A DNA stretch of 51,327 bases from a virus. The stretch is from positions 1-51,327 of IMG/VR virus record IMGVR_UViG_3300043640_000192; one strand, given 5' to 3'. Made by a program: the position numbers and the translations under genes. The notes under the pieces are model-generated. The model was not told where the DNA came from and made no database searches. It saw only the letters and a program-made list of their open reading frames with translations. Position 1 is the first letter of the stretch. Each line of letters starts with the position of its first letter. Shown piece after piece: positions 1-51,327 of this stretch.

Positions 1-117
1 AGGTGCTGGATGACCCGGACCAGCCGTGGAACCCGATGCGGGCCCGGATCTACTTCTACGGCCGGCAGATGTCCCGCGACGAGCTGTTCCACATCCGGGC
101 GTTCAGCGTGCCGGGGA
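1..117. repeat. Terminal overlap copy 1 (identical to 51211-51327); marks a circular/permuted assembly
   Basis: Read directly: 'aggtgctggatgacccggaccagccgtgg...ttcagcgtgccgggga' occurs at both window ends and lies inside the portal ORF. Unit length is 51210 bp. Confidence 0.95.
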
Positions 118-995
118 AGCTGGCGGGGCTGTCACCGCTGCGGCTGTTCATGAACCTGATCAGCTCCGGGAACGACGCGCTGGAGTACGGCGCGTCGTGG
201 TACCGGGCGGGCGGCTGGCCGCCGGGGACGTTCCAGAACTCCGAGACCGAGGTTGAGCCGGAGCAGGCGAACGAGATCCGTAACCGGCTGACCCAGGCGA
301 TCCGCCGCCGCGAGCCGCTGGTGTACGGCCGGGACTGGGACTACAAGCCGGTATCGGTGCCGCCGTCGGAGGCGCAGTTCATCGAGGCGATGCAGCTGAA
401 CGCCACCCAGATCGCGGCGGTCCTGGGGCTGCCCCCGGAGCGGATCGGCGGCAAGCGCGGCGACTCGCTCACCTATTCGACGCAGGAGGACGAGTCGATC
501 TCGCTGATCACCGACACGCTGCGGCCGTGGCTGGTGCGGATCGAGACGGCCCTGTTCGACGTGCTGCCCGCGCAGCAGTACGTGCGGTTCAACGCGGACG
601 CGATGCTGAAGACGAACACCGAGACGCGGCACAAGATCTACCAGGTGGACCGGGACATCGGCCTGAAGACGGTCAATGAGATCCGGGAGCTCGAGGAGAT
701 GGAGCCGCTCGCGGGCGGCGGGGTCGGAACGGACCCGCTGCCGCTGCAGGTGCTGGTGGCGATGGCCCGCGGCATCAAGGAGATCCCGAAGTCCTTCGAG
801 CAGCTGGTGACCGAGGGGCCGGCGGACCAGCTGGCACGGGAGCAGGCGGCGGTGCTGGCGAAGGAAGCCGCCGCGCAGCCCGCCGCCCCGCCCCCGCCGG
901 TGTACCCCGCGGCCCCGGCCGCGGTGAACGGGAGCGGGGCGCCAGTGAACGGGAAGGCCCCGGCGATGAACGGGAACGGGAACGGACATGGCTGA
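3..995 (+). CDS. Portal protein, C-terminal part (HK97-family portal)
   Basis: ORF track 330 aa. The ORF is open at the window start and is followed by protease and capsid genes in the canonical order. Confidence 0.85.
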   Translation: MLDDPDQPWNPMRARIYFYGRQMSRDELFHIRAFSVPGKLAGLSPLRLFMNLISSGNDALEYGASWYRAGGWPPGTFQNSETEVEPEQANEIRNRLTQAIRRREPLVYGRDWDYKPVSVPPSEAQFIEAMQLNATQIAAVLGLPPERIGGKRGDSLTYSTQEDESISLITDTLRPWLVRIETALFDVLPAQQYVRFNADAMLKTNTETRHKIYQVDRDIGLKTVNEIRELEEMEPLAGGGVGTDPLPLQVLVAMARGIKEIPKSFEQLVTEGPADQLAREQAAVLAKEAAAQPAAPPPPVYPAAPAAVNGSGAPVNGKAPAMNGNGNGHG

Positions 996-4340: not shown

Positions 4341-4519
4341 TGGCTACCGCACCTGAGCCGGTCACTGCCGCACCCGACCAGCCCGGCCAGCCCTATGACG
4401 CGGCGGCCGGGGACGGTTCCATGCTCGGCCCGTGGGTGAAGCTGGCCAGCGGCCCGTGTGACATGTCCGGGAAGGTGTCCGGCGACTGGCCGTCGGACAG
4501 CGGCTGGCGGCAGACCTAG
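4340..4519 (+). CDS. Hypothetical protein
   Basis: ATGA stop/start overlap with the upstream gene. Same frame as track ORF 4322..4519. Confidence 0.45.
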   Translation: MATAPEPVTAAPDQPGQPYDAAAGDGSMLGPWVKLASGPCDMSGKVSGDWPSDSGWRQT

Positions 4520-4520
4520 C

Positions 4521-5051
4521 GTGCACCTGCCCTGGCGGCTCGTGGCACCTGGCGCGGGCCCGGGTATCAGCACGTCCGTCACCGCCGCGGAGGCCGCCCG
4601 GCTCCAGGCGCTCGCCGCCGGTAAGCGGGTGCTCGAGGTCGGCAGTGCGTTCGGGTACAGCGCCGTGACGATGGCCCTGGCCGGTGCCCAGGTGACAGCG
4701 GTGGACCCGCACGCCCAGATCGGCGGGTCGTTCGAGGCGATGACAGCCAACCTTGACGCCTACGGGGTGGCAGACCGGGTGGAGATGGTCCGGGAGCCGT
4801 CGCAGACGGCCCTGCCGCGGCTCGCGTCGCAGGACGCCCGGTTCGGGCTGATCTTCATCGACGGGGATCATCGGGCTCCCGGCGTGCGCCATGACATCGA
4901 GCAGGCGCTGAAGCTGCTGGAGCCGGGCGGCGTGCTGGCGGTGCATGACGTGGATGAGTGGTGCTGCTGCCCGGATGTGGGCCACGTGGCGGCGGAGATA
5001 TTCGGTGAGGGCCGCGAGATGGTGGATTCGATGATGCTGGTGAGCCCGTGA
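4521..5051 (+). CDS. Class I SAM-dependent methyltransferase (O-methyltransferase-like)
   Basis: 'VLEVGSAFGYSAVTMA' (SAM motif I) and 'LIFIDGDH'. GTG lies 1 nt after the upstream stop. Confidence 0.7.
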   Translation: MHLPWRLVAPGAGPGISTSVTAAEAARLQALAAGKRVLEVGSAFGYSAVTMALAGAQVTAVDPHAQIGGSFEAMTANLDAYGVADRVEMVREPSQTALPRLASQDARFGLIFIDGDHRAPGVRHDIEQALKLLEPGGVLAVHDVDEWCCCPDVGHVAAEIFGEGREMVDSMMLVSP

Positions 5052-5899
5052 AAGTCCTGGTCACCGGCAGCGCCGGGTTCATCGGCCGTCACCTGTCCGC
5101 CGAGCTGGCGCAGCGCGACCACGAGGTGGTCCCGTTCGACCGGCCGGGCCAGGACATCCGGTCGGCAGACGATACCGAGCGAGCCCTGTATGGCCGCGAC
5201 ATCGGCGCCGTGGTCAACCTGGCCGGGATGCTGGGAACCCCGGAGCTGCTCGGCGCCGAGCAGCAGGCCGCCGAGGTGAACATCCTGGGCGCGCTGAACA
5301 TCTACGACGCGGCGAAGCGTTACGGCGGCGTGCCGGTGGTGCAGATCGGCACCGGCCACAAGGGTCAGCCGAACCCGTACGCGATCACGAAGGCCTGCGC
5401 CGAGGACCTCGGCCTCGCCCGGGCCCGCTGGCTGGGCGAGAAGATCACCGTGGTCCGCGCCTACCACGTGTACGGCCCGGGCCAGATCCCGGGACCGCCG
5501 CACGGCCCCGCCTCGGTGCACAAGTTCTTCCCCACGTTCGCCTGCAACGCCCTCGAGGGCCTCCCGCTGGAGTTGTGCGGCGGCGGCGGCCAGCTCATCG
5601 ACCCGGTGCACGTCTCAGACGTGGCTGTAGCGCTCGCTGACGCGATAGGCGGCCCGTACGGCACGGTGACCGAGGCCGGATGCGGCAAGCCTGTCAGCGT
5701 CGCGCAGGTGGCTGCGGACATCGCCATCGCAGCCCGGTCCGGCTCGGCCGCGCTGGACGGAGCGCCCCGCCCGGGTGAGCCTGACTTCGCCGAGGTGGTC
5801 GCCGCGTCGCCGGTGTGCCGCAACCCGTGGCCCTACCTGGTCCCCGAGACGATCGACTGGTACCGGGAATGGCTGACCAGCCACTCGTCAGCGTCGTAA
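5048..5899 (+). CDS. NAD-dependent epimerase/dehydratase (extended SDR)
   Basis: 'VLVTGSAGFIG' Rossmann motif and 'YAITK' (YxxxK). GTGA overlap with the methyltransferase gene. Confidence 0.8.
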   Translation: MKVLVTGSAGFIGRHLSAELAQRDHEVVPFDRPGQDIRSADDTERALYGRDIGAVVNLAGMLGTPELLGAEQQAAEVNILGALNIYDAAKRYGGVPVVQIGTGHKGQPNPYAITKACAEDLGLARARWLGEKITVVRAYHVYGPGQIPGPPHGPASVHKFFPTFACNALEGLPLELCGGGGQLIDPVHVSDVAVALADAIGGPYGTVTEAGCGKPVSVAQVAADIAIAARSGSAALDGAPRPGEPDFAEVVAASPVCRNPWPYLVPETIDWYREWLTSHSSAS

Positions 5900-6474
5900 C
5901 GCCGACCTGGCGGCGGAACGACCTGCTGATCGGCCGCTGCATCGCCTCCGTCGGCGCCCAGACCCACGCCAGCATCCAGCACGTCGTCGTCTCCGACGGC
6001 CCGGACCCTGCGCTGGCCGCCAGGATGGCTGATCTTGGGGACCTGGTGACCTTCGAGGAACTTCCGGAGCATGACCCGGTCGCCAGGTGGGGCCACCGCG
6101 CCCGGCTGCGCGGCCTGGAACTCGCCAAGGGCGATTACATCGCCTACCTGGACGACGACAACGCGTTCCGCCCAGATCACGTCGCCCGCCTCGCCGCGGC
6201 ACTGGAGGCGGACCCGGGTGCCGGGTTCGCCTACAGCCTGATCCAGATGAACGGCCACGGGCCTGCGTACATCGTCGGGGCGGACCCGCCGTTCTGCGGC
6301 GGCATCGACACGTCCGCGATCATGCACCGCCGCACCCTGCTGGAAACGGCCACGTGGCGGGACGAGGGGTGGCAGGAAACCGTGGACTGGGACCTGGTGG
6401 CCCGCTGGATGTCCGCCGGGATCACCTGGGCGTTCGACGGCGAGATCACCGCCGACTACTACTTCAGCGGCTGA
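5869..6474 (+). CDS. Glycosyltransferase family 2 (GT-A fold)
   Basis: 'VSVVTPTWRR...CIASVGAQT...VVVSDG' and a 'DDD' acidic (DxD-type) motif. ATG at 5869 lies within the 3' end of the epimerase gene. Confidence 0.75.
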   Translation: MADQPLVSVVTPTWRRNDLLIGRCIASVGAQTHASIQHVVVSDGPDPALAARMADLGDLVTFEELPEHDPVARWGHRARLRGLELAKGDYIAYLDDDNAFRPDHVARLAAALEADPGAGFAYSLIQMNGHGPAYIVGADPPFCGGIDTSAIMHRRTLLETATWRDEGWQETVDWDLVARWMSAGITWAFDGEITADYYFSG

Positions 6475-7472
6475 TGAGGATCTTCGCCGGGCACGACGGC
6501 TCCGGCTGCGCCTGGTACCGGGTGATCCTGCCCCTGGAGGAACTGGGCCGCCACGGCCACGATGTGACCCTGGTTTCCGCCGACCAGAGCGACGGCCCGG
6601 GTGTCACTGCCGGCCAGGTCACCGGGCAGGACATCGTCATCGCCCAGCGGTGGGACAACCACGCCGGGATGGGCACCTGGCGGCGGATGGCCGCCCATTC
6701 GAAGCTGGTGTACGAGGTGGACGACGATGTCCAGGCCGTCGAGCCGGTCAACTGGGCCGCGTACACCCGGTACTCCCGGGCCGACGCGCAGGACGCGGTG
6801 GCGCACTCCGCGCAGGTCGCGAACCTGGTCACGGTCACCACGGAGCCGCTCGCCGAGGTGATGCGGGAGCACAACCCGAATGTGGCGGTCCTGCCGAACT
6901 TCATCCCCGGCTGGGTGTGTGACCTGCCGCGGGCCGTCCGGGAACGGCCCCGGGTCGGGTGGATGGGCGGCGCGTCCCACGGCCGGGACATCGGCGTGAT
7001 CGCCGCGCCGCTGCGCCGGTTCCTGAACCGTTTCCCCGGCTGGGACGGGCACCTGGGCGGCGTGGACTACCGGCCTACGATCCGCCATGAGCGGGTCACG
7101 TTCAGCCCCTGGTCACACGTGGTCGCTGACCCGGAGGCGTATTACCAGTCGGTGGACCTGGACATCGGCCTGGCGCCGCTGGTCCTGACGAAGTTCGCCC
7201 GGTCCAAGAGCGCGATCAAGGCGCTGGAGTACGCGGCCCGCGGCATCCCGGTGATCGCGACCGACTCGGAGCCGTACCGGGATTTCGTCCTGCACGGCGT
7301 GACCGGGTTCCTGGTCCGCCGCGACCACGAATGGCTGAAGTACATGTCGGAGCTGGCCGCTGACGGCGGGCTGCGCGAGTCGATGGGCGCGAAGGCCCGC
7401 GAGCTGGCCCGGGCGCACACGATCGAGCACGGATACAAGCTCTGGGAATCCGCCTACGGAGGTCTGCTGTGA
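6474..7472 (+). CDS. GT-B fold glycosyltransferase (GT1/GT4-like)
   Basis: ATGA overlap with the GT2 gene. C-terminal 'KSAIKALEYAARGIPVIATDSEPYRDFVLHGVTGFLV' is a typical GT-B donor-binding region. The track ORF 6087.. is an over-extension. Confidence 0.75.
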   Translation: MRIFAGHDGSGCAWYRVILPLEELGRHGHDVTLVSADQSDGPGVTAGQVTGQDIVIAQRWDNHAGMGTWRRMAAHSKLVYEVDDDVQAVEPVNWAAYTRYSRADAQDAVAHSAQVANLVTVTTEPLAEVMREHNPNVAVLPNFIPGWVCDLPRAVRERPRVGWMGGASHGRDIGVIAAPLRRFLNRFPGWDGHLGGVDYRPTIRHERVTFSPWSHVVADPEAYYQSVDLDIGLAPLVLTKFARSKSAIKALEYAARGIPVIATDSEPYRDFVLHGVTGFLVRRDHEWLKYMSELAADGGLRESMGAKARELARAHTIEHGYKLWESAYGGLL

Positions 7473-7701: not shown

Positions 7702-8217
7702 ATGGCACTGGCACGCGCATACAAGGTCGGCGTCTTCGACACCTCGACCCCCCTGGCCACCGGCGCCACGTCCACGGTGACCACTCCTATCCCGATCCTG
7801 TACGGGGTGACCACGGCCACCGCTGACTGCTACATCTCCGCCGTCCGGTGCAGCGTCCTGGGGGCGGCGGCGTTCCCGTCGAACGCGTCGGTGGTGTTCT
7901 CGCTGAACATCAACACCGGCGCGCAGGCCGGCGGTAACACGGCACTGGCCCGGCAGCTGGCCGGTAACGCGCTGGCCGCGAACACGCTGTTCAAGACGGC
8001 GGGCGGCACGTCCGCGGCGGCGATCACCGGCCTGACGATGACCACTGAGCTGTGGGCGCAGTCGGTGCCGTTCACCGCCGGGTCGAACTGGGGTGAGTGG
8101 AAGACGCCGGGGTTCGAGATCCCGGTCCCCATCTCCACGCAGTTCGCGCTGTTCGTGACGGCGTCGTCTGCGGGGACGGGCACGACGTTCGCCGGCGAGA
8201 TCGAGTTCACTGAGTGA
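7702..8217 (+). CDS. Hypothetical structural protein (predicted beta-rich)
   Basis: Track ORF of 171 aa with Thr/Ala/Ser-rich strand-like composition, located in the head/neck region. Confidence 0.5.
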   Translation: MALARAYKVGVFDTSTPLATGATSTVTTPIPILYGVTTATADCYISAVRCSVLGAAAFPSNASVVFSLNINTGAQAGGNTALARQLAGNALAANTLFKTAGGTSAAAITGLTMTTELWAQSVPFTAGSNWGEWKTPGFEIPVPISTQFALFVTASSAGTGTTFAGEIEFTE

Positions 8218-8260
8218 TGCCCCTCCGGTAGCTGAAGGGAGGTTGTGAGGGGAGGCCGCG

Positions 8261-9937
8261 GTGGCGATCACCCGCGTCAATAGCGCATCGATCACCGCCC
8301 GGGCCGCCGCCGCGTCGGCCACGGCCACGATCCCGGGCGGCACCGGCATCCAGGCCGGGGACCTGATCTACGTCTGCGCGGCCAGCAGCGGCACGCACGT
8401 CGCCAACACCATGTCCGTCCAGGACTCCGTCAACCTGACGCCGTTCACGAAGATCCTGGAGACCCAGCCGCCCGGTTCGGCGTTCTACCAGTCCACTCAC
8501 GTCTTCCAGACGCCTGTCAGCATCGCTGACGGCTCGACGATCACGCTGACCGGGTTCGCCGCGGCTACCGCCTGCGCGCTGGCGATCGACATTTTCCGCG
8601 GCGCGTCGGCGGTCATCGACCGGGCCGCGGTGGGTACCGGCAATGCGACGACCACCACGCCCGCGGGCCCGGCGCTGGGCGGGAACGCCACCGCGGGTGC
8701 GCTGGTCCTGACGACCTGCTCGACGGGTGCGACGGGGACCACGCAGGCGGCGGGGTCGCCGTTCACCGCGGGCAGCACGCAGGCCGTCTCCCCGGGCACC
8801 GGGATCGGCTTCGTCCTGTCGGCCAGCGGTTCCCTTACTTACGCCTCGACGTGGACGCTGGGCGTCACTTCGGTCAGCGCCACGCAGACGGTCTCCTTCC
8901 TGCCCGCCGCGGCCCCGGCTGCACAGCAGCGGAGCCGCCCGGTGATGGCCTCGCGGGCAGCGGGGATCCGGGGCTGGCTCGCCCGCCGCGCCGGGATCTT
9001 CGCCGGGACCGGCCCCGCCGTGCGGGCGCTCCACGGCCCGGTCCGCGCGCAGCCCGCCCGGACCCGCGGCGGGATCATCAGCCGCCGTGCTGGCATCTTC
9101 GCCGGGACCGGGCCGCCGTTGCGGGCACCTGATGGCCCGGTGCAGGCGCGGGCGCTCCCGCGGCGCGGCGGCAGCGTCAGCCACCGTGCCGGGACGCCCG
9201 CCACGGCGGCACCGCAGGCCGGGCCGCCGGTCTACCCGCTGCATGGCCCCGTGGCGGCCCGCAGGCTCCCGCAGCGCGGCGGGGATACCAGCAGCCGCGC
9301 CGGGACTTACGGCGGCACCGGGCCAGCGGTAAGGCCGCCAGACGGCCCGGTACGCGCGCAGCCCCCGCCGCAGCGCGGCGGGCGTACCGCCAGCCGGGCG
9401 GGGACGTTCACCGCGGTGTCCCTCACGTCAGGGCCGCCGGTCTATCCCCTGGGCCACCCGGTCCAGTCCCGCCGGCTGCCCGCCCGCGGCGGATCGGTAA
9501 GCCACCGCGCCGGGACGTTCGCGGGCTCGGGTCCTCCGGTCCCGGCGCTGAAGCAGCCGCTGGGCATCTACCGCCGCCAGCCACCCCCGCCAGCACGTGG
9601 CCGCGTCCTGTCGCTGGACGGGATACGGCAGGGCGCCGGGCCGGTGGTGCGGGCCCTGGACGGCCCGGTCCACGGCCAGCCGCAGAAGCCAGTGCTGTAC
9701 GGCCGGGCGGACAGCCGGGCGGGCATCGCGGTATTCGTGCCGCCACCAGTGCTCCAGAACGCTGCGAGCAGCCCCACGGTCACCGCCGGGGACACGTCCG
9801 CCGCCACGGCCACCGGAGCCGCCCACGGCACCACGCTGACCGCGCAGGGCACGTCAGCGGCCAGCGCCACCGGGCAGCCGGGCGCCAGCACTGTCACCCA
9901 GGCCGGAAGTTCTGGCCCCTCGGTATCAGACGGATAG
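8261..9937 (+). CDS. 558-aa protein: N-terminal beta-rich domain, central Arg-rich tandem repeats, Thr/Ser/Ala-rich C-terminus. Unknown function.
   Basis: SD 'gaggggagg' precedes the GTG start. The repeats were read directly from the translation. Confidence 0.7.
   Translation: MAITRVNSASITARAAAASATATIPGGTGIQAGDLIYVCAASSGTHVANTMSVQDSVNLTPFTKILETQPPGSAFYQSTHVFQTPVSIADGSTITLTGFAAATACALAIDIFRGASAVIDRAAVGTGNATTTTPAGPALGGNATAGALVLTTCSTGATGTTQAAGSPFTAGSTQAVSPGTGIGFVLSASGSLTYASTWTLGVTSVSATQTVSFLPAAAPAAQQRSRPVMASRAAGIRGWLARRAGIFAGTGPAVRALHGPVRAQPARTRGGIISRRAGIFAGTGPPLRAPDGPVQARALPRRGGSVSHRAGTPATAAPQAGPPVYPLHGPVAARRLPQRGGDTSSRAGTYGGTGPAVRPPDGPVRAQPPPQRGGRTASRAGTFTAVSLTSGPPVYPLGHPVQSRRLPARGGSVSHRAGTFAGSGPPVPALKQPLGIYRRQPPPPARGRVLSLDGIRQGAGPVVRALDGPVHGQPQKPVLYGRADSRAGIAVFVPPPVLQNAASSPTVTAGDTSAATATGAAHGTTLTAQGTSAASATGQPGASTVTQAGSSGPSVSDG
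8951..9751 (+). repeat. About 7.5 in-frame tandem repeats of 33-38 aa (consensus S-[RH]RAG-x-F-x-G-x-GP-x-V-x4-GPV-x5-P-x-RGG-x2-S)
   Basis: Example units: 'RRAGIFAGTGPAVRALHGPVRAQPARTRGGIIS', 'RRAGIFAGTGPPLRAPDGPVQARALPRRGGSVS', 'RAGTYGGTGPAVRPPDGPVRAQPPPQRGGRTAS'. The DNA copies are diverged. Confidence 0.85.
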
Positions 9938-9945
9938 GAGACCAG

Positions 9946-10854
9946 GTGTCAGCGACCGTCTTCTACTCCGGCGCCAGCGAGATCGCCACCCTCGCCAACA
10001 CGTTCAAGGTGAACGGCGTGGCCACCGACCCGACCGTGATCACGTGCGTCGTCACCGACCCCGCCGGCGGCCAGGTCACCTACGCCGTCACCGCCGGGCA
10101 GATCGTCCGCACCGGCACGGGTGTCTACACCCTGAACATCCCGTGCCTCCTCGACGGCATCTGGTCCTACGTGTGGATCGGCACCGGCACCGCCTCCGAC
10201 GTGGCCGCCGGGACGTGGACTGTCCAGCCCGTCACCGTCGGCCAGTATTACTGCACCGCCGAGGAACTGAAGTCGCGCCTGTCCATCACCGACACGTCCG
10301 ACGACGACCAGGTGATCCTCGCCTGCCAGGCCGCCTCCAGGTGGATCGAGGGCGCGACCGGCCGGTACTTCTGGCGGGGCACCGACACCCGCACCTACGT
10401 CCCGGAGAGCCTCTGGGGCCTGTCCACCGACGACCTGGTGTCCGTCACCACCCTGAAGACCGACGCGGACGGCGACGGGGTGTTCGAGACCACATGGACG
10501 GCGGGCACCGACTTCGAGCTGGCCCTGGGCGAGCGTGCCTACAACACGGGTGCGTCGGGGGAGCAGCGGCCCTACACCCAGATCCGGGTGACCGGCGGGA
10601 AGTTCTTCCCGTTCACGTGGGCGTTCACCCGCCAGGACCGCATCCAGGTCGTCGGCGTGTTCGGCTGGCCCGCGATCCCCCCCGCGGTCCGCCAGGCCGC
10701 CATGCAGCTCGCCGCCGACTATTTCAAGCTCAAAGATGCCCCGTTCGGCGTGGTCGGGTTCGGCGACATGGGCGTGGTCCGCGTCAAGCCGAACCCGCAG
10801 ATCTACGCCCTCCTGCAGCCCTACGTCCGCGGCAGCCGCAAGGTCGGGGTCTGA
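9946..10854 (+). CDS. Head-tail adaptor (gp6-like connector) with an extra ~100-aa N-terminal domain
   Basis: 'YCTAEELKSRLSITDTSDDDQVILACQAASRWIEGATGRYFW' is a typical gp6-type connector motif. It is preceded by an Ig-like looking N-terminal segment. Confidence 0.7.
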   Translation: MSATVFYSGASEIATLANTFKVNGVATDPTVITCVVTDPAGGQVTYAVTAGQIVRTGTGVYTLNIPCLLDGIWSYVWIGTGTASDVAAGTWTVQPVTVGQYYCTAEELKSRLSITDTSDDDQVILACQAASRWIEGATGRYFWRGTDTRTYVPESLWGLSTDDLVSVTTLKTDADGDGVFETTWTAGTDFELALGERAYNTGASGEQRPYTQIRVTGGKFFPFTWAFTRQDRIQVVGVFGWPAIPPAVRQAAMQLAADYFKLKDAPFGVVGFGDMGVVRVKPNPQIYALLQPYVRGSRKVGV

Positions 10855-11362: not shown

Positions 11363-12370
11363 GTGTTCCGGGGCTGGTCCGAGGCGCTGACCGCCCTCGG
11401 CGAGCAGGTCATGGAATACAACCTCGACACCCGCCTCACCTTTTACGACGCGGCCATGATCGAGACCGGCACCTTCGACGATGACGGCCACACGCAGCTC
11501 CGCAAGGCCGTCACCCGGGAGCAGGCGGTCACGATGGCCGCCGACGGGCTCCTCGGCGCGGCCTACCGCTGGTGGCCGGACGTGATCCTCTGCACGTCGG
11601 CGTTCTTCACCCCGCCGTTCGTGCTGGAGGTCATGCGATCGCGCGGCCACAAGATCGTCATGCTGTTCACCGAGGGCCCGTACCAGACCGGCATGCAGCT
11701 GAAGATGGCGGAGTACGCGCACCTGTCCCTGGTGAACGACCCGTGCGACATAGAGAAGTACCGCGAACTCGGCCCGGCCGAGTACATGCCGCACGCCTAC
11801 CGCCCGGCCATCCACCATCCCGGCCCGGCGGTCCCGGAGCTGGCCTGTGACCTGGGATTCGTCGGTACCGGCTTCCCGTCCCGCATCGAGTTCCTCGAGG
11901 CGATGGACCTGGACGGGCTGGACGTGCTGCTGGCTGGGCACTGGCTGTCCCTGGCGGAGGACTCGCCGCTGCGCAGGCTCGTCGCCCACGACCTCGGCGA
12001 GTGCTTCGGCAACGACCAGGCCGCCGACGTGTATCGCTCGGCCCGGTGCGGCCTGAACCTGTACCGCCGCGAAGCCGAGGACGAGCACGCGGGCGAGGGC
12101 TGGGCGATGGGACCCCGCGAGGTGGAACTCGCCGCGTGCGGCACTTACTTCCTGCGGGACCCGCGGCCGGAATCGGATGAGCTGTTCCCGATGCTGCCCA
12201 GCTTCACCAGCCCGCAGGAGGCGTCGGAGCTGCTGCGCTGGGCGCTCGCCCACCCGCAGGAACGCGCCGAGGCTGCGCTGAAGGCCAGGTCCGCGATAGC
12301 CGGCCGCACGTTCGAAGCCAACGCCAGGTCATTGCTCCGGTTGCTCGACCGGCAGCCAGTCAGCAGGTAG
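11363..12370 (+). CDS. CgeB-like / Glyco_trans_1_2-type glycosyltransferase (body of the gene; the likely true start, GTG 11311, is in another frame)
   Basis: 'FVGTGFPSRIEFL', 'YRSARCGLNLYR', 'GPREVELAACGTYFL' resemble the CgeB/DUF3880 GT family. There is no SD before GTG 11363, whereas a strong SD precedes GTG 11311. Confidence 0.7.
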   Translation: MFRGWSEALTALGEQVMEYNLDTRLTFYDAAMIETGTFDDDGHTQLRKAVTREQAVTMAADGLLGAAYRWWPDVILCTSAFFTPPFVLEVMRSRGHKIVMLFTEGPYQTGMQLKMAEYAHLSLVNDPCDIEKYRELGPAEYMPHAYRPAIHHPGPAVPELACDLGFVGTGFPSRIEFLEAMDLDGLDVLLAGHWLSLAEDSPLRRLVAHDLGECFGNDQAADVYRSARCGLNLYRREAEDEHAGEGWAMGPREVELAACGTYFLRDPRPESDELFPMLPSFTSPQEASELLRWALAHPQERAEAALKARSAIAGRTFEANARSLLRLLDRQPVSR

Positions 12371-12388: not shown

Positions 12389-12811
12389 GTGGCAAGAATT
12401 CACGGCCGCAACGGCCAGGTGTACATGGGGATCGCCGCCGGGGCACTGGCGTCGCCGCTGCCGTTCCAGGCGTCCTGGACGATGAACATGGTCGTCAACA
12501 AGTCCGACGTCACTGCGTTCGGCGACGGCAACACCGTGTACGTTGCGGGCCTCCCCGACGCGAGCGGCGATTTTGGGGGCTTCATGGACGACGCGACCAG
12601 CCAGACCTACATCGCCGCCGTGGACGGATTGGCGCGCAACTTCTACCTCTATCCGAACATTACAGCAGATCCCTTGGTCTACTGGTTCGGAACTGTGCTC
12701 CCGGACTTTTCCGCTGACGGTGCTATTGGCGGTCCCGTTAACTTCAAATCAACTTGGAACGCTGCCTCGAAAGTGCAAAGGTATACGCAATGGGGCGGTT
12801 TGAATACCTGA
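12389..12811 (+). CDS. Major tail (tube) protein, putative
   Basis: 140 aa. '...WTMNMVVNKSDVTAFGDGNTVYVAGLPDASGDFGG' resembles siphovirus tube proteins. Position is upstream of the chaperone and tape measure genes. Confidence 0.5.
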   Translation: MARIHGRNGQVYMGIAAGALASPLPFQASWTMNMVVNKSDVTAFGDGNTVYVAGLPDASGDFGGFMDDATSQTYIAAVDGLARNFYLYPNITADPLVYWFGTVLPDFSADGAIGGPVNFKSTWNAASKVQRYTQWGGLNT

Positions 12812-13525
12812 CCACTTTGCCAGGTATTCAATGGCGGCTTGCAATACAGCGATGTCGTCGCGGGCATAGCCGAGCATGGGATTGCACCGGTCGCACAGCA
12901 GGCCGCGGACCTGGCCAGTCGCGTGATCATGGTCGAGACTCAGCCCGCGCTGCGTGGTGCCGCCGCAGATGGCACAGACGCCACCCTGCGCGTCCAGCAT
13001 CGCCAGGTACTCGGCGTAGCCAACACCATGCTTACGCTCCCGCTTCCGGTTCACGACCTGCATGCTTTCGCGGTGCCGTCCATCAGCGCTGTAACAATGC
13101 TGAGCGCAGTAACGGAAGCGGCCCGGTAGCTTCGGCACTGGACAGCCTGGTATGCGGCAAGGTTCCTCGGCCGCCTTGCGGAGGTGCTCCAGCTTCCGCT
13201 GATAGGCGTCGTCCCGGTGCTCCTGGCAGAGTTTGGAGCCCTGGCCTTGAACCTTCAGGTTTCCGCAGCCGGTCACCTGGCACAGCTGCGGTGCAACCTT
13301 AGCTGCGCGGCAACGGCGGCATTCGCGATAGCGGCTGCGGAATGACTTCCCGCAGGTGATGCACTGGCGTTCTGCGCGCGTGCACTGGGCGCACAGATGA
13401 TTGGTGCCACGGAAGGCGGTGCCGCAGGCGGTGCATGACCGGTCGGCCGCCCGGCATTCGTAGCACTTGCGGTAACGACCGCGGAACCCCTTCCCGCAGG
13501 CGACGCAGTCGCGCTCAGTGATCAT
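12749..13525 (-). CDS. Endonuclease VII-type (HNH-like) nuclease with three N-terminal zinc-ribbon repeats
   Basis: C-terminal 'GGVCAICGG...LSLDHDHATGQVRGLLCDRCNPMLGY' is the EndoVII signature. The N-terminus carries 3x 'C-x2-CG-x-FR-x5/6-C-x2-C'. Confidence 0.8.
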   Translation of the reverse strand: MITERDCVACGKGFRGRYRKCYECRAADRSCTACGTAFRGTNHLCAQCTRAERQCITCGKSFRSRYRECRRCRAAKVAPQLCQVTGCGNLKVQGQGSKLCQEHRDDAYQRKLEHLRKAAEEPCRIPGCPVPKLPGRFRYCAQHCYSADGRHRESMQVVNRKRERKHGVGYAEYLAMLDAQGGVCAICGGTTQRGLSLDHDHATGQVRGLLCDRCNPMLGYARDDIAVLQAAIEYLAKWSGIQTAPLRIPLHFRGSVPS

Positions 13526-13685: not shown

Positions 13686-14246
13686 TCATGACGCGGCCCC
13701 GGTGAAGCTGGCGGCGTTGTAGTCGAACCCGGGGGTGATGGTCACGTTCAGCTGGCTTTCCCAGCTGGCCTGCTGCGCGTCGAACTCGAACAGGTAGGTG
13801 CCGTGCTGGCCCGGGGTGATGGTGCCGGTCGGGTTGTCGATGCCGGTGTCGAACACGGCCTCGAGCTGGCTGCCATCGGGCCCGGCGTTGGCGTCAACGG
13901 TGATCTCGGAGGCGTCGAGGCTGGTTTTGCCGGCGGTGACGCGGACCTTGAGGACGATGGCCGGGTCGCCGGGGTGGCCGCCTCCCGCGTACTGGCCGAC
14001 GGCGGTGACGGTGGCGGAGACGACGGCGACCTGCAGGCCGTCGCTGTAGGTCCAGCCGTTGGCGCGGCCGAACTGCGCCGGGCCGCTGGGCGTCGCCGCG
14101 GGGGTGGTGGCTGGCGCGGCTGACGTGGCCGCGGCGGCCGGGGCGGTGGCTGCGGACGTGGGGTGGCCGGTGGTGGCGCAGCCTGCGGCGGTGAGCGCCG
14201 CTGCGGCGGTGAGCATGAGGCCGGCGGTGATCCTGGTGCGCTTCAT
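13686..14246 (-). CDS. Secreted lipoprotein (lipobox LTAAG|C), beta-sandwich-like
   Basis: 'MKRTRITAGLMLTAAAALTAAGC' is a signal peptide plus lipobox, followed by an Ala/Pro/Thr linker. The gene is on the reverse strand inside the tail operon. Confidence 0.7.
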   Translation of the reverse strand: MKRTRITAGLMLTAAAALTAAGCATTGHPTSAATAPAAAATSAAPATTPAATPSGPAQFGRANGWTYSDGLQVAVVSATVTAVGQYAGGGHPGDPAIVLKVRVTAGKTSLDASEITVDANAGPDGSQLEAVFDTGIDNPTGTITPGQHGTYLFEFDAQQASWESQLNVTITPGFDYNAASFTGAAS

Positions 14247-31570: not shown

Positions 31571-33145
31571 GTGACAACTGACCCGCAAGAGGCGGTGCTG
31601 GCCGGGATCTACACCCGGATGTCCGTCGCCGCCATCGGTGACACCACGAAGGTTGAGGACCAGGAGAGCATCAGCCGCGGCCTTGCGAAGCACCGCGACT
31701 GGGAAGTCGTGGAGGTGTACTGCGACAACAGCCGGTCGGCGTGGCAGCGCAACCGCAAGCGCCCGGGCTGGGACCGGATGCTCGCCGACGTCGAGGCCGG
31801 GAAGATCAACGCGATCATCGTCTACCACGGCGACCGCCTCGTCCGGCAGCCCCGTGATCTTGAGGACCTGCTCGACCTCGCGCACGGCAAGGGGATCAAG
31901 CTCGCCTCGCCGACCGGCACCCGGGACCTGGACGACGACGAGGCCCAGTTCATCCTCGGCATCGAGGCGAACATGGCCCGCCGCGAGTCGGCCAATACCT
32001 CCCGCCGCCGTAAGGCCCAGTACGCACGCTGGCGCCGCGAGGGCCGGGTGCGGCCGGGTGGCCGCGGCGGCCGGGCGTTCGGCTTCGCCACCGACGGTGT
32101 CAGCCACCTGCCGCCCGACCGCTGCGACGTCGCCACCCGCGAAGAGCTCACCGAGGCGGACGTGATCCGGGAGATGGCCCGCCGCATCCTGGACGGCGAG
32201 ACCACCGGGACGGTGTCGAGGGACATCTCAGCCCGCGGCTGGCGCACCCCTGCTGGCGGCAAATTCACGCACGGCACGCTCCGCAAGATGCTCGCCCGGG
32301 CGCGGTACGCCGGGCTGATGCCCGACGGCGTGAGCAAGGCCGCGTGGGAGCCCATCCTGGACAGGGAGACCTGGGAAGCGCTCGCCGTGGTGCTGGACTC
32401 GAAGGCGGCGGCGTTCCGCTATGCGACGAACGCGCGACGGTACCTGCTGTCCGGCATCGCCCGGTGCGGCGCGTGCGGCGCCCCCCTTCATATGCGCGCC
32501 GCCTACCACCGGCCTGGCCAGACCGGGTACGCGTGCATCGAGGACGGGTGCAAGAAGGTCTACCGCTCAGTGGCGCTGCTTGACATGTACGTGGCCGCTG
32601 CCGTGGTGGGCCGCCTGGCCAAGGAGGGCAACCCGGAGGGGCATCTTCCCTCGGTGCCCGGGCTGGCCGCCGAGTGGCGGGCCCTTGACGAGGAGCGCGC
32701 CGCGGTGGAGGCCAGGATTGCCGACTACCGGAAGGGCGGCCTGACCTCCCTGCTTGCCCGCCTTGACTCCCTCGACGCCCGGCTGGCCGAGCTCCGCGAG
32801 CTGGCCCGGGGGGACGCGGACGCCCGGCTGCGGGGCCGCCACGCCGGGATCACGCTCGCGGAGTTCCTCGCTGAGCCCCTCGGTACCCGCCGTGCGCTGG
32901 TCTCGGCGTGCCTTGAGGTGACCGTGCTGCCCGCCTCGCGGCGCGGGCCCGGGTTCCGTACGGAAGACGTGCGGCTGGTACCCCGTGTCAGCGGCCAGGG
33001 GGCCGCGGGCCAGGGCGGCGACGGCGTAAGCGGCGCCGATGCCGAGGATGACGGCGGCGATGACCTTGACGATGCCGAGGTGACGGGGGCCGAGGGGCCT
33101 GGGGGGCTTGCGGTGCCGGACGGGGATGCGGGGCTCCTCGCTTAA
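31571..33145 (+). CDS. int: Large serine recombinase (integrase)
   Basis: 'GIYTRMSV' holds the catalytic Ser. Resolvase domain, recombinase domain, zinc ribbon 'CGACGAPL...CIEDGC' and coiled coil are present. A start at GTG 31598 after SD 'aagagg' is also possible. Confidence 0.85.
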   Translation: MTTDPQEAVLAGIYTRMSVAAIGDTTKVEDQESISRGLAKHRDWEVVEVYCDNSRSAWQRNRKRPGWDRMLADVEAGKINAIIVYHGDRLVRQPRDLEDLLDLAHGKGIKLASPTGTRDLDDDEAQFILGIEANMARRESANTSRRRKAQYARWRREGRVRPGGRGGRAFGFATDGVSHLPPDRCDVATREELTEADVIREMARRILDGETTGTVSRDISARGWRTPAGGKFTHGTLRKMLARARYAGLMPDGVSKAAWEPILDRETWEALAVVLDSKAAAFRYATNARRYLLSGIARCGACGAPLHMRAAYHRPGQTGYACIEDGCKKVYRSVALLDMYVAAAVVGRLAKEGNPEGHLPSVPGLAAEWRALDEERAAVEARIADYRKGGLTSLLARLDSLDARLAELRELARGDADARLRGRHAGITLAEFLAEPLGTRRALVSACLEVTVLPASRRGPGFRTEDVRLVPRVSGQGAAGQGGDGVSGADAEDDGGDDLDDAEVTGAEGPGGLAVPDGDAGLLA

Positions 33146-37200: not shown

Positions 37201-37475
37201 TCTGGCTCGCGGTCATCATCGCCGCCTCCGGCCTGGTGGGCCTGTTCGTCTGGTGGGCCACCCGCCCGCTGCACCTGGCCGTCATGGACGCGCCCGTGCC
37301 GTACTGGCCAGCGAGTAACCCGTGCACCTGGTGCAAGCCGTCCCCGGACGGGATCTGCACCTGCACCAGCGTGTGCGGCCACGTCAACTGCGTCGGGGAC
37401 CACACGTCGATGGCCACTCTCACTGAGCAGGACGTGCAGTGGCTGCGCGAGCAGAGCATCAGGGGGCCCGAGTGA
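37197..37475 (+). CDS. N-terminal TM, Cys-rich protein
   Basis: GTGA overlap with the upstream gene. 'VIWLAVIIAASGLVGLFVWW' followed by CxxC/CxC motifs. Confidence 0.45.
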   Translation: MIWLAVIIAASGLVGLFVWWATRPLHLAVMDAPVPYWPASNPCTWCKPSPDGICTCTSVCGHVNCVGDHTSMATLTEQDVQWLREQSIRGPE

Positions 37476-50703: not shown

Positions 50704-50825
50704 ACCCGAATTATAGGGGTTGCTCGCTGGCTGCCACTGACCAAACGCCAATGACGCTCGGAAGGGGGTGGCCATGAGCCTGGTAGACCGCATCAACGCC
50801 GAATTCACTGAGGCACGCACCATCG

Positions 50826-51327
50826 GTGGGGTCCCCTGGCGATTACCGCCCCTGGGACAGTCCCTACGTCAGGTTCGACGCTGGCGGCCCGGCCCACCCA
50901 TCGGAGGCCACGGGCGGCGTTGAGGCGTCGCTGCGCCTCTCGCCGCTGTACTCAGGCACGCGGCTGCTCGCCGACGCGGTCGCCTCCCTGCCGCTGCAGC
51001 AGTACCGCAAGCTGCCGGGCGGCAAGCCGCAGCGGCTGGACACGCCCTCGCCGCTGCTGGCCAGGCCGTCGGCGACCGGCACCGTGTACGACTGGCTGTT
51101 CCAGGCGATGACGTCGCTGGTGCTGCAGGGCAACGCGTGGGGCTACATCACCGGCCGCGACGGCTACGGCTACCCGACCGGAATCGAGTGGCTCCCGGCC
51201 GAGCGGGTCCAGGTGCTGGATGACCCGGACCAGCCGTGGAACCCGATGCGGGCCCGGATCTACTTCTACGGCCGGCAGATGTCCCGCGACGAGCTGTTCC
51301 ACATCCGGGCGTTCAGCGTGCCGGGGA
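50826..51327 (+). CDS. Portal protein, N-terminal part (continues at 118-995 after circular closure). Conservative GTG start; see the finding on the ATG at 50774.
   Basis: Frame is continuous with ORF 3..995 through the terminal overlap. Peptide '...EASLRLSPLYSGTRLLADAVASLPLQQYRK' is typical of HK97-family portals. The frame opens after TAG at 50784, and the first in-frame start is GTG 50826, which has no SD. Confidence 0.75.
   Translation, partial: MGSPGDYRPWDSPYVRFDAGGPAHPSEATGGVEASLRLSPLYSGTRLLADAVASLPLQQYRKLPGGKPQRLDTPSPLLARPSATGTVYDWLFQAMTSLVLQGNAWGYITGRDGYGYPTGIEWLPAERVQVLDDPDQPWNPMRARIYFYGRQMSRDELFHIRAFSVPG
51211..51327. repeat. Terminal overlap copy 2 (identical to 1-117)
   Basis: Same 117-nt string as the window start. 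Confidence 0.95.

What the first reader, a model, noticed from the sequence alone, without database searches (positions are those of the whole stretch)
8951..9751. Arg-rich 33-38-aa tandem-repeat array in a 558-aa head/neck-region protein
Translation shows about 7.5 repeats with the invariant skeleton RAG..F.G.GP.V....GPV.....P.RGG..S. The DNA copies are diverged, so this is an old duplication rather than an assembly artefact.

The array is flanked by a beta-rich N-terminal domain and a Thr/Ser/Ala-rich C-terminus. I do not recognise this repeat from any described phage structural family. It is strongly basic and sits directly after the glycosylation genes.

Possible roles: a decoration or fibre protein that binds anionic cell-wall polymers, an ejected or internal DNA-binding protein, or a modification substrate.
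Basis: seen in the sequence. Interest (0 to 1): 0.65.

Follow-up and report, generated by a model that had tools for sequence, protein, structure and literature searches.

The report
Polycationic repeat fibre protein with acidic partner
A soil phage encodes a protein with a folded head and seven strongly positive 33-37-residue repeats; the repeat matches no described family, always travels with one small acidic partner gene, and may tether sugar-binding modules to the virus particle.

Summary
ORF 8261-9937 (+, 558 aa) is the true coding frame. It holds seven 33/37-aa units (aa 243-485, nt 8987-9715), a degenerate lead-in and a partial eighth unit. The region carries net charge +33.

The repeat matches nothing in Pfam, PHROGs, NCBIfam, PADLOC, PDB sequences, cultured phages or 185,579 species genomes. 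It is nevertheless a real family: about 1,100 units in about 106 metagenomic phage proteins, 1-41 units each.

AlphaFold2 gives a confident N-terminal beta-sandwich whose fold resembles actinophage "minor tail proteins". The repeat region has no monomeric structure.

The 171-aa acidic protein at 7702-8217 (p171) lies upstream of a repeat ORF in 16 of 16 close and 11 of 11 distant informative loci. It is 63-89% identical where the neighbouring adaptor is only 28-56%. It co-diverges with the repeat and not with the adaptor.

Best reading, inferred and at about 0.4 confidence: a late-operon accessory virion fibre or adhesin. Interchangeable N-terminal modules would be tethered by polycationic docking units that work with p171, inside a virion-glycosylation gene block. 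The function is untested.

The parts
8261..9937 (+). ORF of 558 aa: N-terminal beta-sandwich, polycationic repeat array, Ser/Thr/Ala/Gly tail
   Evidence: ORF list; GC3 0.85-0.94 in frame along most of the ORF; 47 and 118 homologous clusters
8261..8905 (+). N-terminal domain, aa 1-215, all-beta sandwich
   Evidence: AF2 pLDDT 89.8, pTM 0.86. Foldseek BFVD TM 0.6-0.77 to uncharacterised phage proteins and mycobacteriophage/Gordonia 'minor tail proteins'. No PDB match. The domain also occurs alone or joined to other repeat types.
8906..8986 (+). Linker and degenerate lead-in half unit, aa 216-242 (AAAPAAQQRSRPVMASRAAGIRGWLAR)
   Evidence: Weak unit-HMM hit at aa 217-235. Conserved P227/V228/G238 in alignment A1.
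8987..9085 (+). Unit 1 (33 aa, type A) RAGIFAGTGPAVRALHGPVRAQPARTRGGIISR
   Evidence: Independent unit HMM, E 1.1e-14
9086..9184 (+). Unit 2 (33 aa, type A)
   Evidence: E 1.5e-14
9185..9295 (+). Unit 3 (37 aa, type B, GPPVYPLHGPV)
   Evidence: E 7.1e-14
9296..9394 (+). Unit 4 (33 aa, type A)
   Evidence: E 1.9e-15
9395..9505 (+). Unit 5 (37 aa, type B, GPPVYPLGHPVQSRRLPARGG)
   Evidence: E 5.7e-16. Position conserved in homologues.
9506..9616 (+). Unit 6 (37 aa, variant LKQPLGIYRRQPPPPARGR)
   Evidence: E 6.8e-11. Positionally orthologous in nearly all relatives.
9617..9715 (+). Unit 7 (33 aa, terminal variant ...PQKPVLYGRADS)
   Evidence: E 1.9e-11. Conserved in relatives.
9716..9760 (+). 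Partial eighth unit, RAGIAVFVPPPVLQN
   Evidence: Read directly from the sequence. Conserved RAG..(F/Y)..PPP in A1.
9761..9934 (+). C-terminal Ser/Thr/Ala/Gly-rich tail of 58 aa with loose ~10-aa periodicity, ending SVSDG
   Evidence: Composition. Similar endings PAVSDG and PSASDG occur in P0018, P0024 and P0002.
7702..8217 (+). p171: a 171-aa acidic protein (family pI 4.45-5.22), genetically obligate partner of the repeat array; invariant C-terminal Glu and motif PFTAGSNWGEWxTPGFE
   Evidence: 82-89% identical to the L001-L003 proteins although portal and capsid there are ~24-28%. 169 clusters at E <= 0.001, almost all 171-175 aa. Co-occurrence with repeats 16/16 and 11/11. Mirror-tree r = 0.63 with the repeat and 0.13 with the adaptor. 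No hit in Pfam, PHROGs, NCBIfam, PDB or PADLOC.
4458..5051 (+). SAM-dependent O-methyltransferase (Methyltransf_24 / Methyltransf_3); a homologue lies 1-3 kb upstream of p171 in most loci
   Evidence: Pfam 1.7e-20; gene-order table; L045 homologue hits RMNT_CmcI
5048..5899 (+). NAD-dependent sugar epimerase/reductase (Epimerase, RmlD_sub_bind)
   Evidence: Pfam 9e-30
5815..6474 (+). GT-A glycosyltransferase (Glycos_transf_2); the true start may lie a little downstream of 5815
   Evidence: Pfam 3.4e-15
6474..7472 (+). GT-B glycosyltransferase (Glycos_transf_1). Start taken at the ATG at 6474, which overlaps the preceding stop codon.
   Evidence: Pfam. The alignment to L005 begins at aa 130 of the longer ORF.
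9946..10854 (+). Head-tail adaptor, 9 nt downstream of the repeat gene
   Evidence: phrog_442 at 2.3e-35 and Phage_connect_1
11363..12370 (+). Further glycosyltransferase (Glyco_trans_1_2), conserved in related loci
   Evidence: Pfam 1.4e-14; gene-order table

Best explanation
SHOWN. Gene 8261-9937 encodes a three-part protein: a folded N-terminal beta-sandwich, an array of seven polycationic Pro/Gly/Arg-rich units of 33-37 aa with no predicted monomeric structure, and a Ser/Thr-rich tail. The unit defines a family found only in uncultured phages, with 1-41 copies per protein. It sits behind interchangeable N-terminal modules. It is inherited together with the acidic 171-aa protein p171, usually next to sugar O-methyltransferase and glycosyltransferase genes.

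INFERRED. The protein is an accessory component of the virion surface, on the head or neck, made with the late structural genes. Its N-terminal module would bind or act on host-surface glycans. The repeat units would be multivalent docking motifs that attach the protein by binding p171, roughly one acidic p171 (about -3.5) per unit (about +4.3). Invariant Trp/Phe/Glu residues of p171 would recognise the Pro/Arg core of the unit. Copy number would set avidity or reach. Because the attachment pair travels as a cassette, different phage lineages can use it whatever their capsid lineage.
For: Gene and repeats are real.

Family. 1,095 units were collected from ~106 proteins. The consensus is R-A-G-T-[FY]-x-x-x-G-P-P-V-[YR]-P-L-x-G-P-V-[RQ]-A-R-x-P-L-P-x-R-G-[GR]. 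Spacing peaks at 33-34 and 37-38 residues.

Late-operon position. The gene ends 9 nt before the adaptor gene. It overlaps the adaptor gene by 4 nt in L001 and L003. The order capsid, glyco genes, p171, repeat gene, adaptor recurs in many loci.

N-terminal modules.
- The window's N-domain has a fold like actinophage minor tail proteins.
- Other family members carry He_PIG, Big_9, DUF4082 or Spherulin4 domains.
- Neighbouring genes in related loci look like a pectate lyase and an SGNH hydrolase; this is my reading of the translations.
- P0002 has a C-terminal ~180 aa about 95% identical to the window's (by eye from the alignment), an unrelated N-domain and a two-unit indel.

Link to p171.
- p171 is 63-89% identical across loci where the adaptor is 28-56% and portal and capsid ~25%.
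- L004 and L005 have the same N-domain with a different repeat type, and they lack p171 even at lenient thresholds.
- A repeat ORF lies downstream of p171 in 16/16 close-clade loci. In the distant clade it is 10/11 by the array profile and 11/11 with the unit profile.
- Some proteins downstream of p171 carry only 1-4 units. One has a single unit near its C-terminus. That suits a docking tag better than a shaft.
- Similarity of p171 correlates with that of the repeat (r = 0.63). It does not correlate with the adaptor (r = 0.13).

Charge match. Units average +4.27 +/- 1.29 with 0.8% Asp+Glu. p171 has pI 4.45-5.22 and charge -2.3 to -6.3.

Structure. The repeat region has pLDDT 48 with a 29-sequence alignment. 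This is consistent with folding only on a partner.

Portability. The cassette sits between terminase and portal in L045 and outside the head module in L007.
Against: - No experiment or complex model supports a p171-unit contact. Co-inheritance would equally fit a chaperone, a modifying factor or joint action on a third partner.
- Presence in the virion is inferred from gene position only. In L007 the cassette is not near recognisable head genes.
- One locus (L050) has a distant p171-like protein and no unit within 10 kb. The motif shared by all p171-like proteins is therefore not proven to be a unit-binding site.
- Low pLDDT does not tell a disordered tether from an obligate trimeric fibre.
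- The charge match is numerology until a stoichiometry is measured.
Confidence: 0.4

Rival explanations
1. Electrostatic adhesin. The polycationic array itself binds anionic host envelope polymers (teichoic, teichuronic or lipoteichoic acids, capsule, extracellular DNA) and gives reversible first-contact adsorption. The N-domain adds sugar specificity. p171 is a cytoplasmic chaperone or shield that keeps the array off nucleic acids until assembly.
For: Net charge is +33, and +4.3 per unit, with almost no acidic residues across 1,095 units. Arg is far commoner than Lys (13.5% against 1.3%). By my reading of the sequences, the unit's R-G-R core stays Arg-rich in a 58% GC relative. N-terminal modules are adhesin-like. 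Variable copy number fits tunable avidity.
Against: A chaperone is rarely this conserved: p171 is the best-conserved gene of the region at 63-95% identity. The polarity is unusual for an adhesin, because the conserved end of such proteins is normally the virion anchor and the variable end the ligand binder. The host is unknown, so no target polymer can be named.
Confidence: 0.2
2. Fibre shaft. The units form an obligate oligomeric, probably trimeric, extended beta or polyproline-type shaft. Its length is set by copy number, it holds the N-terminal module away from the particle, and p171 is its assembly chaperone or distal/proximal cap.
For: Regular 33/37-aa periodicity with invariant Gly and Pro positions. 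Relatives with the same N-domain carry a different ~17-aa Ala/Thr/Gly/Pro repeat in the equivalent place, which looks like an alternative shaft. Monomer AF2 models of obligate trimers are typically poor. Copy number ranges from 1 to 41.
Against: A trimer carrying about +100 charge with no acidic residues would need counter-ions. Proteins with only one unit, or 1-4 units, exist, and one unit cannot be a shaft. There are few hydrophobic core positions per unit.
Confidence: 0.15
3. Modification substrate. The array or the Ser/Thr tail is the acceptor for the adjacent glycosyltransferases and O-methyltransferase, as an extension of known actinophage virion glycosylation. Arg-directed glycosylation or methylation of the RGG/RGR sites is also conceivable. 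This reading can coexist with the others.
For: An O-MTase, an epimerase/reductase, a GT2 and a GT1 lie just upstream and another GT downstream. An MTase homologue sits 1-3 kb upstream of p171 in most loci, including distant ones. Actinophages are reported to glycosylate the C-termini of capsid and tail-tube proteins using O-MTase plus GT clusters (Freeman et al. 2023, as summarised in PMC12619734 and PMC11600133). The tail is 38% Ser+Thr. Ser and Thr are moderately conserved at unit positions 4 and 33-34.
Against: L004 and L005 have the glyco genes without Arg units or p171, so the enzymes are not tied to the array. The MTase is of the small-molecule/sugar O-methyl type, not a protein-arginine methyltransferase type. 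No acceptor motif is known.
Confidence: 0.15
4. Internal or ejected DNA-binding protein. The polycation neutralises packaged DNA inside the head or travels with it into the cell.
For: High positive charge and a head-module position. Arg-rich segments that neutralise nucleic acid are common in viral capsid proteins (PMC7096446, abstract seen).
Against: The N-terminal modules are extracellular-type binding or hydrolase domains with a minor-tail-like fold. Family members reach 2,636 aa. An obligate acidic partner is not expected for a DNA condenser. No similarity to known internal or ejection proteins was found.
Confidence: 0.05

Closest known systems
Neck passage structure (collar-whisker) proteins of lactococcal 936 and P335 siphophages such as TP901-1 (PMC6669499)
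   Same: They are non-essential accessory virion fibres encoded with the head/neck genes. They are modular, display interchangeable carbohydrate-binding or glycan-hydrolase-like modules, and add avidity to host binding.
   Different: Polarity is reversed: NPS has a conserved N-terminal BppU-like anchor and a variable C-terminus. NPS uses a coiled-coil stalk, not polycationic Pro/Gly/Arg units. It has no p171-like partner. There is no sequence similarity.
Mycobacteriophage and Gordonia phage 'minor tail proteins' (PP, Stubby, Gaia, Hawkeye, Tweety, Phendrix and others)
   Same: The window's N-terminal domain shares their beta-sandwich fold (Foldseek BFVD, TM 0.56-0.77, probability 1.0).
   Different: Sequence identity is 10-22%, and no cultured phage matches by tblastn. 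From my own knowledge, those genes lie downstream of the tape measure, whereas this one lies upstream of the head-tail adaptor. No cultured phage gave a match to the repeat protein or to p171.
Actinophage virion glycosylation clusters (Che8, Corndog and cluster O phages; Freeman et al. 2023, as cited in PMC12619734 and PMC11600133)
   Same: An O-methyltransferase and several glycosyltransferases are embedded in the structural operon.
   Different: The known substrates are the C-termini of capsid and tail-tube subunits. The window's capsid and tail-tube proteins have no long Ser/Thr extension. The p171 plus repeat-protein pair has not been described with such clusters.
Cohesin-dockerin and nebulin-actin (analogies of mechanism only, from my own knowledge)
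   Same: In both, a short repeated motif tethers variable modules to, or lines up along, a conserved partner subunit. Nebulin repeats are ~35 aa, basic, and unstructured alone.
   Different: There is no homology, and no evidence that p171 polymerises or binds the unit. These are offered as models to test, not as classifications.
Head fibres and decoration proteins encoded next to the capsid gene (phi29 gp8.5, SPP1 gp12, T4 Hoc; from my own knowledge)
   Same: The gene sits in the head module before the connector genes, and the protein is a dispensable surface-displayed accessory.
   Different: Those proteins use coiled-coil, collagen-like or Ig-like folds and bind the capsid protein directly. 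Here the attachment candidate is a portable two-gene pair that does not track capsid lineage.

Membership tests
Any curated protein family or repeat (Pfam-A, PHROGs v4, NCBIfam, PADLOC) | Significant profile match of the repeat region or the whole protein | tested here: not met
   0 families for the 558-aa protein in all four libraries. Among 48 family members only sporadic N-terminal domains matched: He_PIG, DUF4082 and Big_9.
Proteins with a solved structure (PDB) | Sequence-profile or fold match | tested here: not met
   Profiles A3, A4, A5 and A6 give no significant hit; A5 gave eight chance-level hits at E 0.13-0.4. Foldseek PDB on the N-domain gives best E 0.024 and TM <= 0.32.
Lactococcal neck passage structure proteins | Conserved N-terminal BppU-like beta-sandwich ring domain followed by a trimeric coiled coil and a C-terminal carbohydrate-binding module | tested here: not met
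   No helix in either AF2 model. Here the variable end is N-terminal and the conserved end C-terminal. No sequence match to PDB entries.
Actinophage minor tail proteins | Shared beta-sandwich fold | tested here: met
   Foldseek BFVD TM 0.56-0.77, E down to 1e-10
Actinophage minor tail proteins | Gene located in the tail-tip block downstream of the tape measure gene | tested here: not met
   The gene lies at 8261-9937, upstream of the adaptor (9946) and 5 kb upstream of the tape measure gene at 15231-17606.
Actinophage virion glycosylation system | O-methyltransferase and glycosyltransferase genes within the structural operon | tested here: met
   Methyltransf_24, Epimerase, Glycos_transf_2, Glycos_transf_1 and Glyco_trans_1_2
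Actinophage virion glycosylation system | The protein in question carries the glycans | not testable with these tools
   Needs mass spectrometry. Only indirect hints exist: a Ser/Thr-rich tail and gene linkage.
RGG/RG-box disordered regions (eukaryotic type) | Clustered RGG or RG in a low-complexity Gly-rich context, substrate of a protein-arginine methyltransferase | tested here: inconclusive
   RGG occurs once in each of five units. However, the element is a defined 33-37-aa Pro-rich unit with ordered invariant positions. The nearby methyltransferase is of the O-methyl/sugar type.
Collagen-like phage fibres | Gly-X-Y triplet periodicity | tested here: not met
   The period is 33-37 residues and no Gly-X-Y runs are present.
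New family proposed here: p171-linked polycationic unit | Unit consensus RAGT[FY]xxxGPPV[YR]PLxGPVxARxPLPxRG[GR] in tandem at 33-38-aa spacing | tested here: met
   Seven units, each E <= 7e-11 against a model built without the window
New family proposed here: p171-linked polycationic unit | A p171 homologue encoded within ~4 kb upstream on the same strand | tested here: met
   p171 lies at 7702-8217, 43 nt upstream. Co-occurrence is 16/16 in close loci and 11/11 in distant loci.

The most novel reading that the evidence does not exclude
p171 and the polycationic unit form a portable two-part attachment system for phage particles, comparable in logic to cohesin-dockerin or nebulin-actin. A conserved acidic beta-protein on (or coating) the virion captures 1-41 copies of a short Arg/Pro docking unit. 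Phages of unrelated capsid lineages could then hang interchangeable glycan-binding or glycan-degrading modules on their heads or necks, and could tune avidity by unit number. The system may act together with the phage-made virion glycans.
Probability: 0.25. Interest if true: 0.8.

Novelty: new variant of a known kind. Interest (0 to 1): 0.55.

Why it matters
Accessory adhesins on phage heads, necks and tails influence host range and adsorption. They are also handles for engineering. If this reading is right, a widespread group of uncultured soil phages uses an undescribed attachment logic:
- a polycationic short docking repeat paired with a small, highly conserved acidic partner;
- both genes moving between phage lineages as a cassette;
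- the cassette usually lying beside virion-glycosylation genes.

This would give a lineage-independent way to display modules on virions, which is useful for phage engineering. It would also define two new protein families (the unit and p171) that annotate about 100-300 currently hypothetical metagenomic protein clusters. If the reading is wrong, the finding remains a well-defined orphan repeat family with a clear genetic partner, ready for a simple binding test.

Tried and rejected
- DNA-level repeat finding sees only the first two units. Protein-level HMMs were needed.
- Library searches were all negative for the repeat protein and p171: Pfam, PHROGs, NCBIfam and PADLOC. PDB sequence profiles gave only chance-level hits at E >= 0.13.
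- Cultured phages (INPHARED) gave no match by megablast of 20 kb, or by tblastn with the whole protein, the N-domain or p171. Only the adaptor has distant cultured relatives, in Pontimonas and Rhodococcus phages.
- 185,579 species genomes hold no p171 or repeat relative, so no prophage or host clue was found. One attempt failed for lack of conserved columns.
- AF2 of the repeat region gave pLDDT 48 and no secondary structure, so no fold search was possible. Foldseek PDB for the N-domain found nothing.
- Profile-profile comparison shows p171 is not related to the N-domain.
- An IMG/VR scan with the repeat as a protein query failed at tblastn confirmation. A degenerate DNA pattern for GPPVYPLGHPV found 11 stretches, all either already known or truncated upstream.
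- Apparent exceptions to p171-repeat linkage (L042, L033) turned out to carry 1-4 units.
- Capsid charge as a binding surface was considered and dropped: all structural proteins are similarly acidic.
- The Freeman 2023 paper is not held, so it is cited only through papers that summarise it.
- My impression that some N-domains (P0002, P0004) are LamG/ConA-like was not confirmed by Pfam and is not claimed.
- Reverse-strand and other-frame ORFs across the region (for example 8207-9244 on the minus strand) are rejected as GC-rich artefacts by the GC3 analysis.
Full report
**1. The observation**

The window is GC-rich (about 70%), so long spurious ORFs occur in all frames. Third-codon-position GC identifies the real frame. 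In the frame of ORF 8261-9937 (+) it is 0.85-0.94 along most of the ORF. The start is supported by a GGGAGG site 5 nt upstream and by the conserved N-terminus MAITRVNSAS in homologues.

The 558-aa product has units starting at aa 243, 276, 309, 346, 379, 416 and 453. There are two subtypes:
- Type A, 33 aa: RAGxFAGTGPxxRxxDGPVxAQPxxxRGGxxS.
- Type B, 37 aa: RAGTFTAxxxxxGPPVYPLGHPVQxRRLPxRGGSVSH.

A degenerate lead-in (aa 216-242) precedes the array and a partial unit (aa 486-500) follows it.

A unit HMM trained only on other proteins recovers exactly seven units at nt 8987-9715. Each has E <= 7e-11. The total is 211.6 bits, against at most -16.7 bits in 200 shuffles. The DNA copies are 45-72% identical, and Tandem Repeats Finder sees only the first two.

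The array has net charge +33 and pI 12. The last 58 residues are Ala/Thr/Ser/Gly-rich.

**2. Surroundings**

The window is a complete circular assembly. It has a 117-bp exact terminal overlap, and the portal gene runs across the ends. It is a temperate siphovirus-type genome. The gene order is:
- portal, S78 prohead protease, HK97-type capsid;
- O-methyltransferase 4458-5051, sugar epimerase/reductase 5048-5899, GT2 about 5815-6474, GT1 6474-7472;
- a 72-aa ORF, then the 171-aa protein at 7702-8217, then the repeat protein;
- head-tail adaptor 9946-10854, a tail-terminator-like gene, and another glycosyltransferase at 11363-12370;
- a small protein at 12389-12811 that I take by position to be the tail tube, then the tape measure gene at 15231-17606 and a 1011-aa Gly_rich_2 tail protein;
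- a serine integrase and RecET-type recombination genes.

**3. The repeat is an orphan but a real family**

The protein has no match in Pfam, PHROGs, NCBIfam or PADLOC. It has no match to PDB sequences, to 50,697 cultured-phage records, or to one genome from each of 185,579 bacterial and archaeal species.

In metagenomes it has 47 relatives in the indexed search. It has 118 clusters among 1.84 billion representatives. Some of these match the array and others match only the N-terminal domain.

Iterated unit HMMs collected 1,095 units from about 106 proteins. The consensus is R-A-G-T-[FY]-x-x-x-G-P-P-V-[YR]-P-L-x-G-P-V-[RQ]-A-R-x-P-L-P-x-R-G-[GR]-x-x-S. Spacing peaks at 33-34 and 37-38 residues. 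Proteins carry 1-41 units. Units average +4.27 charge, and only 0.8% of residues are Asp or Glu.

The last three to four units are positionally orthologous across relatives, while upstream units vary in number. The closest relative, P0002, has a C-terminal ~180 aa about 95% identical (estimated by eye from the alignment). It lacks two units (a 70-aa gap) and has an unrelated N-terminal domain. So unit indels and N-domain swaps are recent and ongoing.

**4. Structure**

With a 16-sequence alignment, AlphaFold2 models aa 1-235 as an all-beta sandwich (pLDDT 89.8, pTM 0.86).
- Foldseek finds nothing convincing in the PDB (best E 0.024, TM <= 0.32).
- In BFVD, 71 matches have E <= 0.001. The 50 listed, all at probability 1.0 and TM 0.56-0.77, include many mycobacteriophage and Gordonia phage "minor tail proteins".

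The C-terminal 344 aa, with a 29-sequence alignment, give pLDDT 48 and no secondary structure. This could mean a disordered region that folds on a partner. It could equally mean an obligate oligomer.

Other family members carry different N-terminal modules: He_PIG, Big_9 and DUF4082, and a Spherulin4 glycoside-hydrolase-like domain. Neighbouring genes in related loci look, by my reading of their translations, like a pectate lyase or tailspike (L002) and an SGNH hydrolase (L004). Together these point to host-surface glycans as the target.

**5. The partner gene**

Comparing the window with loci recovered through the repeat protein (L001-L003) gave an unexpected result. The 171-aa protein (p171) is 82-89% identical there, although portal and capsid are about 24-28% identical. 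Adaptors are about 30% identical over part of their length.

L004 and L005 share the window's N-domain, adaptor and glycosyltransferases at 45-58% identity. They carry a different ~17-aa Ala/Thr/Gly/Pro repeat, and they have no p171 even at lenient thresholds.

p171 defines a family of 169 clusters at E <= 0.001. Among the 120 listed, almost all are 171-175 aa and 61-95% identical to the window's protein. It is acidic (pI 4.45-5.22). Its motifs include KVGVFDT and PFTAGSNWGEWxTPGFE, and the C-terminus is ...EFTE. In the wider superfamily the final residue is always Glu. It has no match in any library or in the PDB.

A scan of IMG/VR with the p171 profile gave 49 loci. The co-occurrence counts are:
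- Close p171 clade: all 16 distinct loci with at least 4.7 kb downstream have an Arg-unit ORF 0.1-4 kb downstream on the same strand.
- Distant clade (32-42% identity): 10 of 11 by the array profile. The eleventh, L042, and also L033 carry 1-4 units when searched with the unit profile. This includes a protein with a single unit near its C-terminus.
- Only L050, a very distant p171-like gene, shows none.

The distant clade goes with a distant unit variant (RGRxxSNPGAPVxNPxxGPVFRQxxxPVxARxPLPxRGR) and with Trp-rich C-terminal mini-repeats.

Across 11 loci, pairwise similarity of p171 correlates with that of the repeat region (r = 0.63). It does not correlate with the adjacent adaptor (r = 0.13), and the repeat against the adaptor gives 0.07.

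The pair therefore moves as a cassette, independent of the head-tail backbone. It also sits in other genome positions: between terminase and portal in L045, and among replication-type genes in L007. A Methyltransf_24-type O-methyltransferase homologue lies 1-3 kb upstream of p171 in most loci. In L045 it hits the rhamnosyl O-methyltransferase family and is accompanied by a GT1.

**6. Interpretation**

Shown:
- a real, expressed-frame gene for a modular protein;
- a new repeat family;
- a tight genetic partnership with p171;
- frequent linkage to sugar-modification genes;
- recombinational exchange of N-terminal modules and of unit number.

Inferred, at about 0.4 confidence: the protein is an accessory component of the virion surface (head or neck). 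It would display a glycan-directed module and would be tethered through its units, which act as multivalent docking motifs for p171.

Four observations favour docking over a mere shaft or a free polycation:
- The conserved end of such modular proteins is normally the attachment end, and the variable end is the ligand binder.
- Single-unit and few-unit proteins exist.
- p171 is the most constrained gene of the region.
- The charges roughly cancel at one p171 per unit (+4.3 against about -3.5). The invariant Trp/Phe/Glu residues of p171 are the kind that recognise Pro/Arg peptides; that last point is my own inference.

Rivals:
- Direct electrostatic binding of anionic wall polymers, with p171 as a chaperone (0.2).
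- An obligate oligomeric shaft whose length is set by unit number (0.15).
- A substrate for the neighbouring glycosyltransferases and methyltransferase, which is not exclusive of the others (0.15).
- An internal DNA-binding protein (0.05), disfavoured by the extracellular-type N-terminal modules.

None of these can be settled without a complex model or an experiment.

**7. Comparison with what is known**

The closest functional analogue is the lactococcal neck passage structure. It is an accessory collar-whisker protein made with the head genes that displays swappable carbohydrate-binding modules (PMC6669499). Its polarity, coiled-coil stalk and BppU-like anchor differ from this protein, and there is no homology.

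The N-domain shares a fold with actinophage minor tail proteins, but it is encoded in the head/neck block.

The neighbouring enzymes match the known kind of actinophage virion-glycosylation cluster. Such clusters are reported to modify capsid and tail-tube C-termini (Freeman et al. 2023, via PMC12619734 and PMC11600133). [quoted passage not shown]

Cohesin-dockerin and nebulin-actin are analogies of logic only.

**8. Verdict**

The feature is real, and the family is not described in any library searched. The protein most likely belongs to a known general kind, the accessory phage adhesin or fibre. Its attachment and repeat element, and the obligate partner, are undescribed. I rate it a new variant of a known kind, with interest 0.55.

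Noticed in passing
window 7702-8217 (+): A 171-aa acidic protein (p171) is the best-conserved gene of the region: 61-95% identical among the 120 listed of 169 metagenomic clusters, almost all 171-175 aa. It has an invariant C-terminal Glu and the motif PFTAGSNWGEWxTPGFE. It matches no library. It is always encoded upstream of Arg-unit proteins.
   Followed up: yes
window 1-117 and 51211-51327: The two ends of the window are an exact 117-bp direct repeat, and the portal gene runs across the junction (50787..51327 joined to 1..995). The window is therefore a complete circular assembly of a phage genome of about 51.2 kb.
   Followed up: partly
window 4458-7472 and 11363-12370 (+): A virion-glycosylation-type gene block lies inside the structural operon. 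It comprises an O-methyltransferase, an epimerase/reductase, a GT2, a GT1 whose ATG overlaps the preceding stop codon, and a third glycosyltransferase after the neck genes. The capsid and putative tail-tube proteins lack the Ser/Thr C-terminal extensions reported for glycosylated mycobacteriophages.
   Followed up: partly
window 12749-13525 (-) and 13686-14246 (-): Two opposite-strand genes are inserted between the putative tail-tube gene and the tail-assembly genes. One is a Cys-rich zinc-finger protein with an HNH/endonuclease-VII-like C-terminus. The other is a lipoprotein with a lipobox (LTAAGC). Both look like morons; both assignments are my reading of the translations.
   Followed up: no
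L004 8001-10339; L005 8001-10853; proteins P0032, P0037: The same N-terminal domain is joined to a quite different ~17-aa Ala/Thr/Gly/Pro repeat (for example AGIPVATGTAPQPV) in phages that lack p171. In L004 the N-domain is a separate 208-aa ORF. The next ORF starts 36 nt later with the basic linker GGPSYQRRYRRKQQPL.
   Followed up: partly
alignment A1; proteins P0004, P0018, P0019, P0024 and others: A conserved basic linker motif, RPGxTWLRRF(R/H)HRQQLP, separates the variable N-terminal domains from the unit array in many relatives. In the window it is degenerate (QQRSRPVMASRAAGIRGWLAR).
   Followed up: no
L045 9989-18982; L007 10001-14979: The p171-plus-repeat cassette occurs at other genome positions. 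In L045 it lies between the large terminase and a 1414-aa portal protein fused to a NUDIX domain. In L007 it lies among DnaB and DUF932 genes, away from recognisable head genes.
   Followed up: partly
L035, L043, L045, L048, L054 (C-termini of the repeat proteins): Distant family members end in short Trp-rich mini-repeats (for example DWSTGDVF..W, YQWSYG.PE, ARWAWEAG) in place of the Ser/Thr tail.
   Followed up: no
L002-L008 and related loci (for example L006 11306-11914): A ~190-200-aa protein family ('p200', beginning MSG..MTQ.ELL...) sits immediately upstream of the N-domain or repeat gene in many loci, with or without p171. It is absent from the window and has no annotation.
   Followed up: no
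window 31571-33145, 37439-39546: The phage has a large serine integrase and a RecE/RecT-type (YqaJ plus RecT) pair, so it is probably temperate. Even so, no relative of p171 or of the repeat was found in 185,579 species genomes.
   Followed up: partly
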